DNA of 64,000 bases. Origin: an uncultured Phycisphaeraceae bacterium. GTDB taxonomy: Bacteria > Planctomycetota > Phycisphaerae > UBA1845. A program made the position numbers and the translations under genes. Every line of letters starts with the position of its first letter. Position 1 is the stretch's first letter. The DNA lies in NCBI GenBank assembly GCA_964526695.1, contig CAZGJA010000042.1, positions 21,145-85,144 on the forward strand, in the 5' to 3' direction. The notes under the pieces were generated by a model. That model was not told the origin of the DNA, did no database searches, and saw nothing but the letters and a program-made list of their open reading frames with translations. Below, piece by piece: positions 14,852 through 42,257 of the stretch.

Positions 14852-15091
14852 TCAGGACTTTTCCTGCGAGCGTTCGCAGATCCACGTGTGGGCCAGGTCG
14901 GCGACCTTGGCGGCGACCAGCAAGTCGTCGCGTCCGAACGTGTCGGACTGCTCCCAGTTGTCGCCATCTTTGTAGAGCCGGCGAAGCTGCACGTTGTGCC
15001 GCACGCCGCCCTCCACCTCGTTGGCCCAGATCACGGCCTTGATGCGGCCGAGCCGCACTTCGTGAACGGGTTTGTCCTTTTCCTTCGGCAT
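14852..15091 (-). CDS. Small SSB/PC4-like protein, copy 2
   Basis: AAGGAG RBS; KPVHEVRLGRIKAVIWAN...RLYKDGDNW...FGRDDLL...AHTWI; strong identity to copy 1. Confidence 0.75.
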   Translation of the reverse strand: MPKEKDKPVHEVRLGRIKAVIWANEVEGGVRHNVQLRRLYKDGDNWEQSDTFGRDDLLVAAKVADLAHTWICERSQEKS

Positions 15092-15116
15092 GGTGATTTC
15101 TCCTTTGCCTTCGGTT

Positions 15117-15233
15117 TCAGAATCCACTTGATACACACTCATAACGCTCCTCGTCGATTACTCGCTCCGTTCGCGTCGTGCGTCGCATGACGTTGCCGCC
15201 CTGCTCGGCGCCGCGTGCGGAGCCTTCGTTCAT
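15117..15233 (-). CDS. Possible 38-aa peptide
   Basis: AGGAGGT RBS before ATG 15233; MNEGSARG...CVSSGF; immediately upstream of SSB-like copy 2. Confidence 0.3.
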   Translation of the reverse strand: MNEGSARGAEQGGNVMRRTTRTERVIDEERYECVSSGF

Positions 15234-15876
15234 CCTGGCTGTCACCTCCTCTCTGCAACCTGCGCAGCATGCCACTCCCTCCGGCTCGGCGCGCACAGGC
15301 GGCGTCGCGACGAAGGAAACGGAACTCAGCGTTACCGGGATGCAGGACCGCGAAGCGCGGTCGTTGGGAAAGAACAGCTTGCGGCGCGACCGTAGCACGT
15401 TTCGGGCGCACGGGTCAAGCGGCGCTGCCCGTCTGGTGCCGCCTGCCATGCCCACCTTCATCATAAGCGTGACGGGTCGCGTCTGCACGAACCGAGTCAC
15501 CTGCCCCCCCGGCAGTCCGCTGCGGTCCGCGATCGCCTGGGACACCTGGGCGGCAACCGCCAGCACCCGTTGCCGCCCCTGCACCGGGTCTGCCGTATAA
15601 AGCCGTCGTCGTCGGGTCCTCGCCCCGTCGAGGCCGTCAGGCCCTTGGGACCCGACGAGGACGGCTACGGCAGACCCAGTGCTGCGCCACCCTGAATCCA
15701 GTCCCCACCCACCCTGCCGGTAATGCCTGAGTCCGAGGGTTCCTCGATTCCACGCCGCTTTGCACCGGTCGCACGAGCGCCTCCGACCCGCCCCTGAGAA
15801 CAGGCTTGTTGCCTGGATTTTTCTTCGCGCCGCCATCGCGGATGGATAGAATGTAGCAACCGCCGTTCCCGGCGCG

Positions 15877-15974
15877 GCTCTTTGACAACCGCAGAGCGCC
15901 GTCCCCAAACGAGTTCAACCCCTTCGCGGGTTTACTGGCCCCCTCTCCTGCCGGGGCCTTACAAATTCCGCAGG
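15877..15974 (+). ncRNA. Structured leader element copy 3 (boxA-like site, hairpin, H-type pseudoknot)
   Basis: GCTCTTTGACAAC at 15877; AACCC-CTTCGC-GGGTT; stems GGCCCC 15937-42/GGGGCC 15953-58 and CCTGC 15947-51/GCAGG 15970-74; covaries with the copies at 29.0 and 29.6 kb. Confidence 0.65.
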
Positions 15975-16129
15975 AAACAAAGCGGCTCCATCGGAGTCGG
16001 TCGCGGGCCAAGCGGCTCCTGACTTCATTTACGAAGGGCAACATCCTATCCCATTAGCGCTCTCCTGCCCTTGAGCGAGAGAGCGGTGATGTAGGAGGAG
16101 GATGAGGCAACCTGTAAGTGAAATAGGAG

Positions 16130-16438
16130 ATGAAGCATATGCTTTGGTTATTGCGATTGCTACTCATAGGACCCGAGTCGTTCAAGGTTCCCCGACGCCA
16201 GCCGACTTCCGTCGATACGCCGGTGGGCGACCGTCAACCGACGGACGCCTTCACCAACGGACGGATGAAGCTGCGGGTGTGGAAGAACTACGACAAGCGT
16301 GGCGAAGTCTTTTACAACTTCGACCTGGTCCGACAGGTGGAGCATGGCCGGCACGCAAAGTCTTTCCAGTTGCAAGACCTGGAACCGGCAGTGGAATGCT
16401 TGAAGCGGGCGCTTGCCTGGGATCGAGACCGTAAGTAG
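16130..16438 (+). CDS. Divergent SSB/PC4-like protein, copy 3
   Basis: C-terminal half FTNGRMKLRVWKN..GEVFYNFDLVR...KSFQLQDL...ALAW aligns by eye to copies 1 and 2; start 16130 or 16139. Confidence 0.55.
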   Translation: MKHMLWLLRLLLIGPESFKVPRRQPTSVDTPVGDRQPTDAFTNGRMKLRVWKNYDKRGEVFYNFDLVRQVEHGRHAKSFQLQDLEPAVECLKRALAWDRDRK

Positions 16439-27200: not shown

Positions 27201-28595
27201 ATGAACTCGATAAGACAATCGACCGCCCTGGCGACGGCGATGAGCCGGATGCCGGGCGGCTATCGTCGCATGGACGTGAATCATCTTTTGGCCGTCTGGC
27301 ACGCCTACCGCACGGAAAAGCGCATTCGTTTCGTGGACTTCCGCGTCTACCTGGCGCTGCACGAGATGGCCGAGCGGCGTCGAGCCGGACGCCGCAGCAA
27401 AGCGCGTCGACGGAAATCGACGCTTCCACCAAAGCGGAACCTGAGCGGAATCGTGTTGGAATGTGCCCGATTGCTGCGGGTGCGAGACTCCCGCGTCGCG
27501 TCCGGCGCCATACAGCGGCTGGCGCGTGCGGGGTTGATTTCGATTTCAGAGCATTCGATTCGACTCAAGGGGCAAGGACCCGCATCGCTAGAGCAAGACT
27601 CAAGGACCGGTTTGGCCGGTCGGAATGTGTCGCGCCGGACGATGGCAGTTCCGCGCCGAGTGCTTCGGCATCTGGCTGGCGGAGAGACCGTCAGTCGCAC
27701 CGCGACCATGCTGGGACACTTGCTACGCTGCGTATTCCATCATCGCGGTTCAGGCTGGAACTCGGTGGGGTCGTGCTCGATTCGGTTTGTGGCCGAACTG
27801 TTCGGCGTGGACGCCCGAAGCGTCAAACGCGCGCGTCGGAGGCTGGTGGACGAGGGTTGGCTGAAGCCGGAGTCGGCGGACCATTGGCACGTGCAGGCGC
27901 AGGGCGCTCGGGTGAAGGTCAACCTATCCTGGTTCCCCGGTCCGCAGGAACCACTTCTAGACGTCAACGCGGCCGGAATGTCACCCCGGCCACCCGGTTT
28001 CGCGTGCCCGTTGTCACCCCCAGGATCAAAACGCACGCTTCCCCTGGTACTTCAGAACCACACACCCGCGTTTCCGCGGGGTGTTGGTGTTTGGACCGAT
28101 GGGCCGGCTGAGGATCCACCGCGATTGGCGGATGTCCGTCTCTGCGACCTTGTGGAAGCGGATCGCCTGCAACTGCTCTGCCAGGAAGCGTGCGCGCGCG
28201 GCTGGATTCGGTCCAGCGAGCACGACACGTTGCGCGTGTTCTCCGCCGCTGCACACGCTCGAAGGGTCGGGCGCACCAACCCGTGTGGCTTGTTCGTAGT
28301 AGTCCTGCGGCGCGGGTTGTGGATGTACCTGAGCAACGATGACGATGACACCGGGCGGGCTCTGTTCCGATCGCTGAAAGACCCACGCCTGGTCGGTCCT
28401 GCGAATCGTCCGCGGGGTGCCGCACACTCGCGCGAACTCGGTCGCGAACCTGAGGAAATCCGCGGGGTAAACAACCTTGCGGCGTCCCTCGCGAGGGCAT
28501 TCACAATGCCGGGAAGCACTGCACGACGAACCGAAAGGGGAGCGCGACCTGTGTTCGCCGTAGCTCGGCTCCGTCGCGAATTGGCTTCGCGATGA
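27201..28595 (+). CDS. Putative replication initiator (two wHTH-like regions)
   Basis: DFRVYLALHEM; SIRFVAELFGVDARSVKRARRRLVDEGWL HTH; divergent from parA. The ORF is well supported; its function is inferred. Confidence 0.5.
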   Translation: MNSIRQSTALATAMSRMPGGYRRMDVNHLLAVWHAYRTEKRIRFVDFRVYLALHEMAERRRAGRRSKARRRKSTLPPKRNLSGIVLECARLLRVRDSRVASGAIQRLARAGLISISEHSIRLKGQGPASLEQDSRTGLAGRNVSRRTMAVPRRVLRHLAGGETVSRTATMLGHLLRCVFHHRGSGWNSVGSCSIRFVAELFGVDARSVKRARRRLVDEGWLKPESADHWHVQAQGARVKVNLSWFPGPQEPLLDVNAAGMSPRPPGFACPLSPPGSKRTLPLVLQNHTPAFPRGVGVWTDGPAEDPPRLADVRLCDLVEADRLQLLCQEACARGWIRSSEHDTLRVFSAAAHARRVGRTNPCGLFVVVLRRGLWMYLSNDDDDTGRALFRSLKDPRLVGPANRPRGAAHSRELGREPEEIRGVNNLAASLARAFTMPGSTARRTERGARPVFAVARLRRELASR

Positions 28596-28635
28596 AGCCG
28601 CGGCCGCGCTTGCGCTTCCGCATCGTTGATGGTAT

Positions 28636-28676
28636 AAAAAAAGGCCCCTTGGGGGGCTAATGAGACCTCCCAAGGG
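28636..28676 (-). terminator. Intrinsic terminator of unit 1
   Basis: Minus strand: CCCTTGGGAGG..CCCCCCAAGGGG-CC-T7. Confidence 0.8.
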
Positions 28677-28698
28677 AACCTGCGTTTGCGAGTTCGAG

Positions 28699-28881
28699 TT
28701 ACAGTCCACCTGTTCTGATTCGCTCTAAGAGCACCAGACCCACGGCGAACCCGATCCCGATCAGAAACGCGGAGAACCAAAACAGCACGAACACGTGTGT
28801 GATTCTCCAAATGATCAGGTTCAGCACTGACTTCACCACCGATTTCTCGTTCCTCTGCATACGCTTTCTGTCTCTTTTCAT
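28699..28881 (-). CDS. 60-aa single-TM glycine-zipper peptide A
   Basis: GAGAGG RBS; basic N-terminus, F39-G42-G44-G48-L51 helix; ungapped homologue of 29256-29438. Confidence 0.7.
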   Translation of the reverse strand: MKRDRKRMQRNEKSVVKSVLNLIIWRITHVFVLFWFSAFLIGIGFAVGLVLLERIRTGGL

Positions 28882-29043
28882 ACGTCCTCTCTCAAGGTTT
28901 TTTCAGTTAATAAGAAAACCAGAAAAACCGTTCATCAACCTTCGCAGATGAGCTGCGTGAGCAGCCCATCGGCCAAGTGGTAAACAGAGAGGTCAGACAT
29001 CGACGTCGTCAGAAGAGGCAAAGTCCCTTGCTGGTTGCGCAAA

Positions 29044-29122
29044 CGCGCCGGTCGAATGTTTGAGAGCCCGGACCGGTAAGGGGCTCATGCAAACCCACGA
29101 AGGGGTTGCGCCGTGACGCGAC
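29044..29122 (-). ncRNA. Structured leader element copy 1 (hairpin, H-type pseudoknot)
   Basis: Sense: GCAACCCC-UUCG-UGGGUUUGC then GAGCCC/GGGCUC crossed by CCGGUC/GACCGG; 73 of 75 nt identical to copy 2. Confidence 0.7.
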
Positions 29123-29202
29123 GGACGGCTCGTATTTGGCCTGGCCGCCGCGAAATCTCGCCGAGAAGCAACGCTGCAGGCTGCGATGCCTCGTGTTTCC
29201 GC

Positions 29203-29240
29203 AAAAGTGCCCTTGGGGGGCTAATGGGACCCCCCAAGGG
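29203..29240 (-). terminator. Intrinsic terminator of unit 2
   Basis: Minus strand: CCCTTGGGGGG-TCCCATTAG-CCCCCCAAGGG-CAC-T4; homologous to the unit 1 terminator. Confidence 0.7.
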
Positions 29241-29255
29241 AATTGCGTTGTCGGT

Positions 29256-29438
29256 CTACATGCAACCGTTCCAGATGGTTACTGCGAGCAGTATCCCTGT
29301 CGTAAGTCCAAGACCCGCTGTGAAGCCGGCAGCGAAAATCTTGAAGAAATTCCTGACGGCTTCCTCCACGGCGAATTGCACTTCGAGAGGCACCCGATCT
29401 GTAGTCAAACGCTTCATGTCATCCATTATGTTTCTCAT
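29256..29438 (-). CDS. 60-aa single-TM glycine-zipper peptide B
   Basis: GGAG RBS before ATG 29438 gives exactly 60 aa; M8,R10,V16,F31,F39,G42,G44,G48,L51,I55,G58 identical to peptide A. Confidence 0.7.
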   Translation of the reverse strand: MRNIMDDMKRLTTDRVPLEVQFAVEEAVRNFFKIFAAGFTAGLGLTTGILLAVTIWNGCM

Positions 29439-29593
29439 AATACGCTCCATTTGTTTCAAGTTAATAAACAACCATCAACCGCTCATCCACCTCACAGATA
29501 GGCTGCAAAATGCAGCCCATCGGCCAAGCGATGAACATGGAGCACAGACAGTGGCGTGAACGATGGTCAGGTGACCTCATGGTGCAGACCGCA

Positions 29594-29723
29594 ACGCCCG
29601 GTCGAATGTTTGAGAGCCCGGACCGGTGAGGGGCTCATGCAAACCCACGAAGGGGTTGCTCCGTGACGCGACTCGGAGGCCGGCTTCCGCCGCCCGGTCG
29701 CGGTATTTCGTTGACAAAGAGCA
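29594..29723 (-). ncRNA. Structured leader element copy 2 with upstream boxA-like site
   Basis: Same motif 550 nt from copy 1; TGCTCTTTGTCAAC at 29723-29710. Confidence 0.7.
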
Positions 29724-30371
29724 TGCCGGCCGGCAGCGGTCCCACGGACGGCCCACGGCCCGGCCCTCCATTGTATGCACGCCTGATGGGCAAGGGTACG
29801 CCACCGGGGCGGCGTGGCCGTCGTTTTTGGCGATCGCTGGCCGGGAATCCGTCTGAGCCGCCCGCCAAGGTCTGAATCCGGGCGCGACGGTGGACGCCAA
29901 CGGAATCCTCCGGAAAGCCGCTTTGCACCGCCCCGCGGCTCCGGCTATCTCCCGGTCGTGCGAAAAAACCGCCTGGGGCCAATACGGCAATCTGGGTAGC
30001 TTTGGGTGAATGGTCACGAGTTAAGTGCGGAAGACTTTCCCTGTCCGGGCCGTCGCCCTTCCCCGCGAGCCCGGCCCGGAAGCCGGGTGCCGCCGGGCCT
30101 GGGAGCGATGCAGTCCCGTCCAATCGCGGGATTTGCCGTTGCCGTAGCGAACCCTCGGCTCGCCCGTGAAGCCGTAAGTGCCTTGCGGCAAAAGAGGTTC
30201 GGGATTCGGCCTGCGGCTCGGGACCCTGTCGGCCGTCGCTGGCCCGGAGACGAGCGAAGCGAGCCGGCGGCGGTCGATAGGGTGAGGCGCGGGCACCCCG
30301 CCTGCGGAGGGGCTCCCGGAGGCCCGAGCGTGCAGGCTTCTTGCTTCCGAGGTGCCGAGGTGGACGTCCAG

Positions 30372-41292: not shown

Positions 41293-42257
41293 TGTCGAGA
41301 GGCTCGTTGGCCTATCGCGGTAGCCGTCACATCGGCGGTTGGAGCATCGCCTCTGTGCTACGAGTCGTGGCAACGGGCATAGGGCTGTTTCTATTCGTAT
41401 CGACGGTCGCATTCATTGTATTCTCTGTCTTGCCGACTGATCCGGTGCGCAATGCACTTGGAATGAACGCTAGCGAGGAGGCGGTTCAGTCGCTTCGCCA
41501 GCAGCTTGGATACGATCGGCCGATGGCCAAGCGATACGTGCGCTTCCTGGTTGGCTCGCTCCAGTTGGATTTCGGCCGCTCGATCCATTCTCGCCGTCCA
41601 GTGGGCGCAATGATTGTCGAAGGGTTAGCAACGACAGGTCGCAATGGAGCTATTGGGCTGTGTCTCGCTGCGTTCTTGAGTTTGATGTTGGTCGTCGTTG
41701 CGTGGTCGTGGAGGAGGATTGAACACGCTTTGGTTCTCTTGTGTCGGTTGCTAACGAGCATCCCTAGCCTCATTCTGGCGGTCACGGCCGGCGTTGTGGC
41801 CTATAGCATGCTTGGCGGCTTCGGAACAGGTGGTTATCGCGAGGTCGTCGGCGTTGTTACTGCCTTGGCGGTGTACCCGACTTGCTCACTGGCAGAGATT
41901 GCGATCGGTGAATCCCGGAGGGCGGAGCGGTGTAGCTTTGTAACGGCCGCGCGCAGCTTCGGCATGAGCGAACGGGCGGTGTTCGCTCGGTGCGTTCTTC
42001 CTGCCATACTGACTAGCTGGGCAGGGCACGTGTCCAATCTGGCAGCGTCGATTTTCGTTTCCTCCGCGGTCGTCGATGCGGTTTTCTCTTTACCGGGAAT
42101 TGGTCATTTACTCGTTCAGGCAGTTATCCATAACGATCTTCCGGTCGTGCAGGGGGTGATCGTCGTCGTAATCGCGGGCTTCCTAGGCGTTGATCTCTTG
42201 TTCGATCGTTTAGTCCTGCCGCGGTTGGCCGTGCATGTGGGGAGTACCCGATCGTGA
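41292..42257 (+). CDS. DppB-like ABC permease
   Basis: PTDPV, LGYDRP, DFGRS, TAARSFGMSE, VFSLPGIG. Confidence 0.92.
   Translation: MSRGSLAYRGSRHIGGWSIASVLRVVATGIGLFLFVSTVAFIVFSVLPTDPVRNALGMNASEEAVQSLRQQLGYDRPMAKRYVRFLVGSLQLDFGRSIHSRRPVGAMIVEGLATTGRNGAIGLCLAAFLSLMLVVVAWSWRRIEHALVLLCRLLTSIPSLILAVTAGVVAYSMLGGFGTGGYREVVGVVTALAVYPTCSLAEIAIGESRRAERCSFVTAARSFGMSERAVFARCVLPAILTSWAGHVSNLAASIFVSSAVVDAVFSLPGIGHLLVQAVIHNDLPVVQGVIVVVIAGFLGVDLLFDRLVLPRLAVHVGSTRS

What the first reader, a model, noticed from the sequence alone, without database searches (positions are those of the whole stretch)
28947..29521. Second conserved hairpin with wobble swap fixes the strand of the leader RNA
Seen: downstream of the pseudoknot, copy 1 has GAUGGGCUGC-UCAC-GCAGCUCAUC (28970-28947) and copy 2 has GAUGGGCUGCA-UUU-UGCAGCCUAUC (29521-29497). 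A G-C/G-U pair swaps to G-U/G-C, which pairs only on the minus strand. Both are followed by (A/G)AGGU(U/G)GAUGA; copy 3 has a hairpin followed by GAGGAGGAUGAG near 16095. The about 70 nt between the two conserved blocks is unrelated between copies. This supports a modular RNA leader rather than recent duplication alone.
Basis: seen in the sequence. Interest (0 to 1): 0.6.

Follow-up and report, generated by a model that had tools for sequence, protein, structure and literature searches.

The report
Conserved hairpin in ICE mRNA leader
The hairpin is real and is one conserved part of a previously uncatalogued folded mRNA leader that sits in front of several small genes on planctomycete mobile elements and probably keeps their ribosome-binding sites hidden; it is an interesting new RNA family but of a familiar regulatory kind.

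Summary
Observation confirmed. Both 10-bp hairpins lie at the stated coordinates on the minus strand, with the G-C/G.U swap and the following AGGU(U/G)GAUGA.

A 10-bp hairpin alone is at chance frequency here. What makes it real is conservation. I found about 21 homologous leader units in 11 genomes of 4 families of one Phycisphaerae order. Each has a GC-rich 5-12-bp (mostly 7-12) hairpin at this position, with different sequences.
- On 10 of them, 91.9% of cells pair, against 71.8% shuffled and 39-48% slid; 9 of 15 pairs have double changes.
- The sense strand folds better than its complement in 19 of 20 units, and 16% of pairs are G.U.
- A -10 box lies upstream and a real ORF downstream.
- Metatranscriptome contigs from four studies span hairpin and ORF.

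The minus-strand, modular-leader reading therefore holds.

The hairpin caps a long G.U-rich helix. That helix lies between a CU-rich anti-SD and the gene's SD, which are predicted to pair. The AGGUNGAUGA tract is SD-like, but neither it nor its AUG is conserved across the family.

No Rfam family matches. Trigger and exact role are unknown.

This scan has noted analogous, non-homologous RBS-hiding leaders on other conjugative elements.

The parts
29770..29775 (-). -10-like hexamer TACAAT of the copy-2 unit; predicted transcription start near 29763
   Evidence: A TAnAAT hexamer lies 61-118 nt upstream of hairpin 1 in 14 of 20 units. An RNA-library contig reaches 29742. No 5'-end mapping was available.
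29711..29721 (-). Motif CTCTTTGTCAA (family consensus GCTCTTTGWCAAC) between the -10 box and the pseudoknot block
   Evidence: Present in 11 of 20 units with hairpin 1. Its role is unknown: it could be an RNA motif or a palindromic TTGWCAA operator.
29594..29672 (-). Copy-2 5' block: hairpin 1 plus an H-type pseudoknot
   Evidence: Models R1 and R2 score it 101.7 and 80.9 bits. Pseudoknot complementarity is kept with different sequences in relatives. This block is the subject of a separate finding.
29537..29544 (-). Copy-2 CU-rich anti-SD (UGCUCCAU), directly 5' of the long helix
   Evidence: It pairs with the SD region 29449-29444 in the minimum-free-energy fold. Cognate duplexes beat non-cognate ones across the family.
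29497..29521 (-). Copy-2 hairpin 2 (the finding): 10-11 bp, U-rich loop
29483..29493 (-). Copy-2 SD-like tract plus AUG (GAGGUGGAUGA); forms the 3' strand of the helix below hairpin 2
   Evidence: Duplex with the organism's own 16S 3' tail is -10.3 kcal/mol, stronger than any background window tested. It is paired in the minimum-free-energy fold.
29460..29467 (-). UUAUUAAC motif in or near hairpin 3
   Evidence: Shared by copies 1 and 2, L018 and L039; a variant UUAUCAAC occurs in L034 and L051.
29444..29449 (-). SD of the copy-2 ORF (UGGAGC)
   Evidence: Predicted unpaired probability is 0.12, against 0.28 for shuffled leaders.
29256..29438 (-). Copy-2 ORF: 60 aa with a C-terminal hydrophobic segment
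   Evidence: RNA-library contigs at high word depth cover it in a bioreactor-sludge metatranscriptome.
29203..29242 (-). Terminator-like hairpin after the copy-2 ORF
   Evidence: 90% identical to the hairpin after copy 1.
29044..29122 (-). Copy-1 5' block: hairpin 1 plus pseudoknot. No promoter of its own is recognisable upstream.
28986..28992 (-). Copy-1 anti-SD (CCUCUCU)
   Evidence: It pairs with AGAGAGG (28892-28886) in the minimum-free-energy fold.
28947..28970 (-). Copy-1 hairpin 2 (the finding): 10 bp, loop UCAC
28932..28943 (-). Copy-1 SD-like tract plus AUG (GAAGGUUGAUGA)
   Evidence: -6.9 kcal/mol with the 16S tail.
28886..28893 (-). SD of the copy-1 ORF (GAGAGAGG)
   Evidence: Predicted unpaired probability is 0.14, against 0.30 shuffled.
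28699..28881 (-). Copy-1 ORF: 60 aa, basic N-terminus, C-terminal TM segment ending IRTGGL (family A)
   Evidence: Homologues lie behind the same leader in L033, L052 and L037.
28639..28678 (-). Terminator hairpin with U-tract after the copy-1 ORF
15916..15974 (+). Copy-3 5' block (hairpin 1 plus pseudoknot). The preceding TAGAAT (15847-15852) and CTCTTTGACAA (15878-15888) belong to the same unit.
16058..16085 (+). Copy-3 hairpin 2: 7 bp, a 1x1 internal loop, then 3 bp
16086..16107 (+). Copy-3 G-rich SD-like tract that contains GGAGGAGGAUGAGG
   Evidence: Duplex with the 16S tail is -14.3 kcal/mol.
16139..16438 (+). Copy-3 ORF: 99 aa, starts MLWLLR...LIGPESF (family B)
   Evidence: Homologues lie behind the same leader in L034, L051, L018 and L014 unit b.

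Best explanation
Hairpin 2 is a conserved structural element of a roughly 250-330-nt sense-strand mRNA leader. The leader is carried, often in several copies, by integrated mobile elements of one Phycisphaerae order.

The leader has two modules.
- A 5' module: hairpin 1 plus an H-type pseudoknot.
- A 3' module that resembles an expression platform. In it, a CU-rich anti-SD pairs with the gene's SD. This closing helix encloses a long irregular helix and usually a third hairpin that carries an A/U-rich loop.

Hairpin 2 is the GC-rich cap of the long helix. Its stem sequence is free to vary. Its immediate flanks are conserved (5' YGYUUGRCC, 3' UGYGARG). The lower 3' strand is G/U-rich, paired through many G.U wobbles, and in many members complementary to the 16S rRNA tail.

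I infer that the module holds translation of the downstream small gene low until something opens it. On this reading the stable cap fixes the register of a deliberately weak, wobble-rich lower helix, where opening would begin.

Shown: the hairpin, its covariation, its strand and its presence in RNA libraries.
Predicted only: SD occlusion.
Inferred: the cap-and-register role, and the existence of a trigger.
For: Existence and strand.

Family: 21 units in 11 genomes of 4 GTDB families. No real match lies outside the order in the 150 class-level genomes sampled.

Common 3' architecture appears in the minimum-free-energy folds of nearly all units examined.

Anti-SD:SD pairing:
- Cognate duplexes average -13.4 kcal/mol and non-cognate ones -11.1 (Wilcoxon p = 5e-4).
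- The SD core has an unpaired probability of 0.25 natively and 0.37 in dinucleotide shuffles (p = 0.003). Copies 1 and 2 are at 0.14 and 0.12.

Conserved flanks: model R3 finds an untrained instance at 23 bits, E = 1.6e-5.

Base composition is asymmetric: the 5' flank is 64% C+U and the 3' flank 66% G+U.

Transcription: -10 boxes lie upstream. RNA-library contigs from four studies join hairpin 2 to the ORF and reach 29742.
Against: - In silico, breaking or deleting hairpin 2 does not change predicted SD occlusion. Its own contribution is therefore not explained by thermodynamics.
- SD occlusion is only moderately better than in shuffled leaders. In my reading it is not visible in 4 of 19 units (w_copy3, L035, L039, L029); a fifth, L056, is also indistinguishable from its shuffles.
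- The units are related, so the p-values overstate independence.
- The RNA contigs carry no strand information.
- No trigger, ligand or binding protein has been identified.
Confidence: 0.6

Rival explanations
1. Leader-peptide (uORF) control. The SD-like tract plus AUG just 3' of hairpin 2 starts a tiny upstream ORF. Its translation or stalling would open the SD-hiding helix, as in the CTnDOT tetQ leader or erm attenuators.
For: - The AUG follows the SD-like tract in copies 1 and 2, G093 and copy 3.
- The uORFs of copies 1 and 2 and G093 (10 codons, 3 then 4 codons, and 10 codons) end 16-26 nt before the main start, close enough for a terminating ribosome to melt the closing helix. This is read from the sequences.
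- A metatranscriptome variant at 29483 keeps the AUG.
- CTnDOT uses a 3-codon leader peptide with RBS-occluding hairpins (PMC5812530).
Against: - The start codon is not conserved across the family. L056 and L042 have none although their close relatives L035 and L055 do. L033 and L052 have only a GUG abutting a weak GAAG. The copy-3 AUG opens a 110-codon out-of-frame ORF.
- Spacing between the SD-like core and the AUG is only 3 nt.
- The peptides are unrelated.
- The SD-like tract is itself paired in the predicted fold.
Confidence: 0.15
2. Type I toxin-antitoxin-like (hok-like) mRNA. The 60-aa hydrophobic proteins are toxins. The long folded leader keeps the primary transcript untranslatable until it is processed or released from an antisense RNA, and this stabilises the element.
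For: - The proteins are small with a C-terminal TM segment, and the genes are tandemly duplicated.
- The SD is predicted to be hidden in a long leader.
- The gene sits next to the par/rep module, and this synteny with the Rep-like gene is kept in G140 and G205.
Against: - The same leader precedes non-membrane proteins: family C, which looks YodL-like (Atlas lead), and the GDWG-motif proteins.
- No plus-strand promoter-like site was found in 28500-29900.
- Toxicity is untested.
Confidence: 0.1
3. Transcription attenuator. Hairpin 2 with its extended helix, or hairpin 3, terminates transcription before the ORF.
For: U-rich runs follow the extended helix in copy 1 and L039. They also follow hairpin 3 in L014 unit b.
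Against: - No U-tract directly follows hairpin 2 in the window copies. The terminator scan does not call it.
- The U-runs are absent in most members.
- RNA contigs run continuously from the leader into the ORF.
Confidence: 0.07
4. Single-stranded DNA structure (Frpo/ssi-type promoter or origin) that forms in the transferred strand rather than in RNA.
For: The element is a mobile element with transfer genes. Leading-region genes of plasmids are known, from established knowledge, to use hairpin promoters.
Against: - The complementary strand, which would be the template strand, folds 8.6 kcal/mol worse on average, because 16% of the pairs are G.U.
- An ordinary -10 box lies upstream.
- The outer helix involves the SD, which is an RNA-level feature.
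Confidence: 0.03

Closest known systems
RBS-occluding translational attenuator of the CTnDOT tetQ-rteA-rteB leader (PMC5812530)
   Same: It is an mRNA leader on a conjugative element in which a stable hairpin hides the ribosome-binding site. A very short upstream ORF sits in the leader.
   Different: There is no sequence or structural homology. The short ORF here is not conserved. This leader is much longer, has a 5' pseudoknot module, and is reused before at least four gene families.
STAXI RNA motif (Rfam RF01728; PMC2864571)
   Same: It is a structured RNA of unknown function linked to mobile elements, built from pseudoknots and UUCG-type loops. Its authors also argued, from RNA-specific features, that it acts as RNA rather than as DNA.
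   Different: It gives no match to the Rfam model, even at E up to 10 for the window region and up to 0.1 for 14 relatives' loci. Here there is one pseudoknot, not tandem repeats. STAXI is enterobacterial. No hairpin-2/anti-SD module is described for it.
hok-type type I toxin mRNAs (established knowledge; not tested here)
   Same: These have long folded mRNAs with a hidden SD, a small hydrophobic product, a maintenance-locus context and tandem copies.
   Different: No antisense RNA gene was found here. The leader is shared with soluble proteins. There is no homology.
Repeated RBS-hiding leaders on other conjugative elements, noted earlier in this scan (e1-2480415, e1-3098703, e1-5289583)
   Same: The logic is the same: one folded leader is reused before several small establishment or maintenance genes of an element, and it hides the RBS.
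   Different: They come from different phyla and have different sequences. Those notes are unchecked by me; I compared concepts only.

Membership tests
Any Rfam 15 family (including STAXI RF01728, radC RF01754, traJ-II RF01760) | A covariance-model match at or near the family's gathering score | tested here: not met
   Nothing reaches gathering score in the whole window. In 28600-29800 at E up to 10 there is only a 16-bit suhB-like hit on the terminator. Fourteen relatives' loci at E up to 0.1 give only an unrelated sub-threshold hit on a terminator-like stretch of L014.
Intrinsic terminator or attenuator | A GC-rich hairpin immediately followed by a U-tract | tested here: not met
   Hairpin 2 is followed by UGCGAAGG or UGUGAGG. 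The scan does not call it. U-runs occur 20 or more nt later, and only in some members.
Leader-peptide translational attenuator | A conserved short ORF with its own SD in the leader | tested here: not met
   It is present in copies 1 and 2 and G093, but absent or inconsistent in L056, L042, L034, L018 and copy 3.
Leader-peptide translational attenuator | Mutually exclusive alternative hairpins | tested here: inconclusive
   An alternative hairpin (the 3' arm with the AUG region) is isoenergetic in G093, at -16.5 against -16.6 kcal/mol. In the window copies it is only -6.7 and -7.0 against -16 and -17.
SD-sequestering cis-regulatory mRNA leader (generic kind) | The SD pairs with an upstream anti-SD, and the pairing is kept by covariation | tested here: met
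   The folds show it. Cognate duplexes beat non-cognate ones at p = 5e-4. SD accessibility is below shuffles at p = 0.003. This is a prediction only; there has been no probing.
SD-sequestering cis-regulatory mRNA leader (generic kind) | It is transcribed in the sense orientation as part of the mRNA | tested here: inconclusive
   A -10 box lies upstream. Unstranded RNA-library contigs join the leader to the ORF. Sense folding is favoured. No stranded data or 5'-end data were available.
Type I toxin-antitoxin | An antisense or divergent small RNA gene that overlaps the toxin mRNA | tested here: inconclusive
   No plus-strand sigma-70-like promoter lies in 28500-29900. Planctomycete promoters are poorly defined.
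Type I toxin-antitoxin | A small hydrophobic toxic protein | not testable with these tools
   Family A proteins are 53-67 aa with a TM segment. Toxicity is unknown.
Frpo/ssi single-strand DNA promoter | A long hairpin in the transferred (template) strand that rebuilds -35 and -10 boxes | tested here: not met
   The antisense strand folds at -24.5 kcal/mol against -33.1 for sense. A conventional -10 box lies upstream of the whole leader.
Riboswitch | A conserved ligand-binding aptamer coupled to the expression platform by exclusive pairing | not testable with these tools
   A conserved pseudoknot module exists. I found no covarying link between it and the hairpin-2 module: the complementarity between the hairpin-1 loop and the hairpin-2 flank is explained by base composition.

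The most novel reading that the evidence does not exclude
The pseudoknot module and the hairpin-2 platform together form a new class of sensor RNA, responsive to a ligand, a protein or the ribosome. It would co-ordinately switch on translation of the maintenance and establishment genes of a whole family of planctomycete integrative elements. On this reading the conserved purine-rich internal loop beside hairpin 2 is the recognition site.
Probability: 0.15. Interest if true: 0.75.

Novelty: new member of a known kind. Interest (0 to 1): 0.5.

Why it matters
Planctomycete mobile elements and their regulation are almost unstudied. Here a single folded leader is reused before at least four unrelated small-gene families, next to the replication and partition module. 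It is held in RNA-derived contigs from soil, sediment, rhizosphere and bioreactor metatranscriptomes.

If it is a shared translational switch, it offers a handle on how these elements time their maintenance or establishment genes. It would also add a new covariation-supported family to the RNA catalogues.

For the specific finding, the value is more modest. It settles the strand. It shows that the hairpin is a conserved module. It corrects the idea that the following AUG tract is a conserved block.

Tried and rejected
1. Pairing between the hairpin-1 5' arm and loop and the 3' flank of hairpin 2 (a possible link between the two modules). It looked striking in copy 1, L036 and L053. It is explained by composition: mean z = 0.03 against shuffles, and cognate against non-cognate gives p = 1.0.

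2. A switch in which the hairpin-2 3' arm pairs instead with the AUG region. It is isoenergetic only in G093.

3. Hairpin 2 as a thermodynamic staple for SD occlusion. Breaking or deleting it in silico has no effect.

4. Pairing of the 5' motif GCUCUUUGWCAAC with GUUGA or GAGC tracts around hairpin 2. By eye there is no consistent register or covariation; I ran no formal test.

5. A k-turn reading of the UGYGARG flank. The non-bulged strand lacks the required GA (by eye).

6. Pattern scans for more copies found nothing in metagenome contigs or viral contigs. The one genome-contig scan returned only the known G093 contig.

7. Class-level matches L058 (a tRNA) and L059 (probably inside a coding sequence), and the weak family- and order-level matches L015-L017, L019-L023, L025, L026, L028, L030, L031, L038, L040 and L041, look like false positives. 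L024 looked like a possible homologue in the alignment but was not followed up and is not counted.

8. The R3 hit at 41488-41536 is antisense inside a permease ORF and is probably chance.

9. Pfam and PHROGs gave nothing for any downstream protein.

10. RNA contig ends at 29639 and 29646 coincide with variant sites 29640 and 29641. I read them as assembly breaks, not as RNA ends.

Full report
**What is in the sequence**

On the minus strand the window carries two tandem units about 551 nt apart. Each unit has:
- a leader of about 250 nt or more;
- a 60-codon ORF with a C-terminal hydrophobic segment (28881-28699 and 29438-29256);
- a near-identical terminator-type hairpin.

Stem positions 4 and 5 swap between G-C/G.U and G.U/G-C. 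Both hairpins are followed by an SD-like tract ending in AUG: GAAGGUUGAUGA and GAGGUGGAUGA.

A third unit on the plus strand has the 5' block at 15916-15974 and a hairpin at 16058-16085. That hairpin is followed by a tract containing GGAGGAGGAUGAGG, and then by a 99-codon ORF from 16139.

Identity between copies 1 and 2 is mosaic:

| Segment | Identity |
|---|---|
| Pseudoknot block | 96% |
| Hairpin-2 block | 78% |
| Spacer | 48% |
| ORF | 43% |
| Upstream region | 39% |

A 10-bp hairpin alone is not remarkable here. I counted 10 and 18 per strand, against 8.6 expected. Both hairpins are found on the minus strand only.

**Relatives**

The window lies in a Phycisphaerae-type planctomycete genome: 5.3 Mb in 146 contigs. 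The closest hit is a MAG labelled uncultured Phycisphaera.

I built covariance models of the 5' block (R1, then R2). With them I searched 101 genomes of the family, 151 of the order and 151 of the class. After inspection I accept about 21 units in 11 genomes of four GTDB families of the order. I accept none outside the order among the genomes sampled.

The units cluster two or three to an element, sometimes in tandem. Fourteen of 20 have a TAnAAT hexamer 61-118 nt upstream of hairpin 1. Eleven have the motif GCTCTTTGWCAAC between the two.

The downstream ORFs fall into at least four unrelated families:
- A: small TM proteins ending IRxxGL. This is window copy 1's family; copy 2's ORF is only loosely similar, ending in a C-terminal TM segment but without the IRxxGL motif.
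- B: about 100 aa, starting MLWLLR (the family of window copy 3).
- C: 103 aa. A protein-atlas look-up suggests YodL-like, which is a lead only.
- D: proteins with a GDWG motif.

Pfam and PHROGs know none of them.

The family A gene lies next to a Rep-like winged-helix gene in the window, and also in G140 and G205.

**Hairpin 2 across the family**

Every unit examined has a GC-rich hairpin of 5-12 bp (7-12 in 19 of 20), with a 3-6-nt loop, 31-99 nt before the start codon. The stem sequences are entirely different (and its corrected re-run).

On a gap-poor MAFFT alignment of ten units from seven genomes (A7), I tested the hairpin plus five flanking pairs:
- 91.9% of cells are paired, against 71.8% after shuffling partners (0 of 500 shuffles reach it) and 39-48% when partners are slid.
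- 9 of 15 pairs carry changes on both sides.
- The covariation score is 0.71 against 0.33.

These sequences are related, so the shuffle result is not a probability. The slid controls keep relatedness and fail clearly.

The flanks are conserved in sequence (5' YGYUUGRCC, 3' UGYGARG). A model built from A7 (R3) finds an instance it was not trained on: L053:2126-2172, 23 bits, E = 1.6e-5. That instance belongs to a third tandem unit in G079. The unit has a CATACAAT promoter box, hairpin 2, a GGU-rich tract and a family B ORF, but no pseudoknot block. L014 unit b appears to be similar; no hairpin 1 motif or R1/R2 match was found there.

**Strand**

- With 25-nt flanks, the hairpin-2 region folds at a mean of -33.1 kcal/mol in sense and -24.5 in antisense. 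Sense is better in 19 of 20 units.
- 79 of 497 predicted pairs are G.U.
- The 5' flank is 64% C+U and the 3' flank 66% G+U.
- R3 scores the window copies at 51.4 and 41.1 bits on the minus strand and at 22 bits on the plus strand. The model was trained on them, so this is only illustrative.
- The promoter boxes, the SDs and the conserved ORFs agree.

Public metatranscriptome contigs from four studies (soil, sediment, bioreactor sludge, rhizosphere) match at 95-99% identity and cover two stretches:
- 29406-29646, which runs from the ORF through hairpin 2 into the pseudoknot block;
- 28699-29084.

One further contig reaches 29742. In the sludge run the contig word depths are 183-803 in a 55-Mb library.

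Contigs give no strand and cannot prove transcription. They are, however, consistent with a start upstream of the hairpin near 29763.

**Anatomy of the 3' module**

Minimum-free-energy folds of the stretch from the pseudoknot to the start codon give the same plan in nearly all units.
- A CU-rich segment directly 5' of a long irregular helix pairs with the SD. Examples: copy 1 CCUCUCU with AGAGAGG; copy 2 GCUCCAU with AUGGAGC; L036 CUCUCUCUGG with CUGGAGAGAG; L018 UCCUUCUGACAA with UUGUUAGGAGGA.
- Hairpin 2 caps the long helix.
- A third hairpin usually follows, often carrying UUAUUAAC.

Two tests bear on the anti-SD:SD pairing. Cognate duplexes are stronger than non-cognate ones, at -13.4 against -11.1 kcal/mol (p = 5e-4). 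The SD core is less accessible than in dinucleotide-shuffled leaders, at 0.25 against 0.37 (p = 0.003); copies 1 and 2 are at 0.14 and 0.12. I rate this as moderate support. In my reading, four of 19 units show no such effect; a fifth (L056) is also no different from its shuffles.

**The AGGUNGAUGA tract**

The organism's own 16S 3' tail is GAUCACCUCCUUUCU. The tract after hairpin 2 is strongly complementary to it in 11 of 20 units: G093, window copies 2 and 3 (copy 1 only weakly, at -6.9 kcal/mol), family B leaders, L053 and others. It is not complementary in family C, L037 or L052.

The AUG is not conserved. L033 and L052 have GUG. L056 and L042 have nothing, although their near relatives L035 and L055 have a 3-codon ORF. 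The copy-3 AUG opens a long out-of-frame ORF.

I therefore read the tract as the G/U-rich, SD-like 3' strand of the lower helix. I do not read it as a conserved start site. A uORF mechanism stays possible for the window's own subfamily, at about 15%.

**What I could not explain**

Deleting or breaking hairpin 2 in silico leaves SD occlusion unchanged. Its conserved presence therefore needs another reason. Candidates are setting the register of the weak lower helix, guiding folding kinetics, or acting as a processing or protein-binding site together with the conserved purine-rich internal loop.

I found no covarying link between the pseudoknot module and this module. An alternative hairpin exists only in G093.

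**Comparison with known systems**

No Rfam 15 family matches the window or the relatives. STAXI, another pseudoknot RNA near mobile-element genes of unknown function (PMC2864571), is an analogue, not a relative.

In logic, the 3' module resembles the RBS-occluding leader of CTnDOT tetQ, which has a 3-codon leader peptide (PMC5812530). It also resembles the folded mRNAs of type I toxins; that comparison rests on established knowledge.

Earlier notes of this scan describe analogous reused RBS-hiding leaders on conjugative elements of other phyla. I did not test those.

**Verdict**

It is a new, uncatalogued RNA leader family of a familiar regulatory kind. The trigger and the precise role of hairpin 2 remain unknown.

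Noticed in passing
window 29711-29721 (-), 15878-15888 (+); L014, L018, L029, L033-L035, L037, L051, L052, L055: The motif GCTCTTTGWCAAC lies between the -10 box and hairpin 1 in 11 of 20 units. Its core TTGWCAA is palindromic and resembles a -35 box. No -10 follows at 17 nt, so it may be an operator or an RNA motif.
   Followed up: partly
window 29252 (-): In the bioreactor-sludge RNA run, a high-depth contig is joined to Illumina adapter sequence exactly 4 nt after the stop codon of the copy-2 ORF, upstream of the terminator hairpin. This may mark a frequent RNA end or processing site.
   Followed up: no
L018, L034, L051, L014 unit b, L053:2160-2185; window 16086-16107: Family B leaders carry GGU-repeat tracts (for example GGUGGUGGUGUGG) right after hairpin 2. 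These tracts have enough GG runs for a two-tier RNA G-quadruplex, as an alternative to the wobble-rich helix.
   Followed up: no
window 27201-28595 (+) with 28699-28881 (-); G205:C8:119071-120967; G140:C1:799152-801345: A Rep-like winged-helix gene converging on the family A small-membrane-protein gene with its leader is conserved in synteny across three GTDB families.
   Followed up: partly
window 14852-15142 (-): A 96-aa ORF is a weak paralogue of the family B protein behind copy 3 (28% identity over 65 aa, pairwise E = 4e-4). It lacks the hydrophobic N-terminus. No leader of this family was detected in front of it.
   Followed up: partly
L035:1692-2003 and homologues in L055, L056, L042: The family C protein behind the same leader looks YodL-like in the protein atlas (score 0.94). 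That domain is seen in phage and conjugative-element polyvalent proteins.
   Followed up: no
L058 (G301:C12:52973-53048): Model R2 hits a tRNA with a long variable arm: GCAACCCCUUCGAGGGUUCGAAUCC resembles hairpin 1 and the start of the pseudoknot. I treated it as a false positive. I did not examine whether the 5' block is tRNA-like.
   Followed up: no
window 29123-29200 (-): Copy 1 has no recognisable -10 box or GCTCTTTG motif of its own, and it starts right after the copy-2 terminator, whose U-tract is weak. It may depend on read-through. Second units of tandem arrays in G024 and G079 likewise showed no TAnAAT box in the upstream sequence examined (only 40 nt for the G024 unit).
   Followed up: partly
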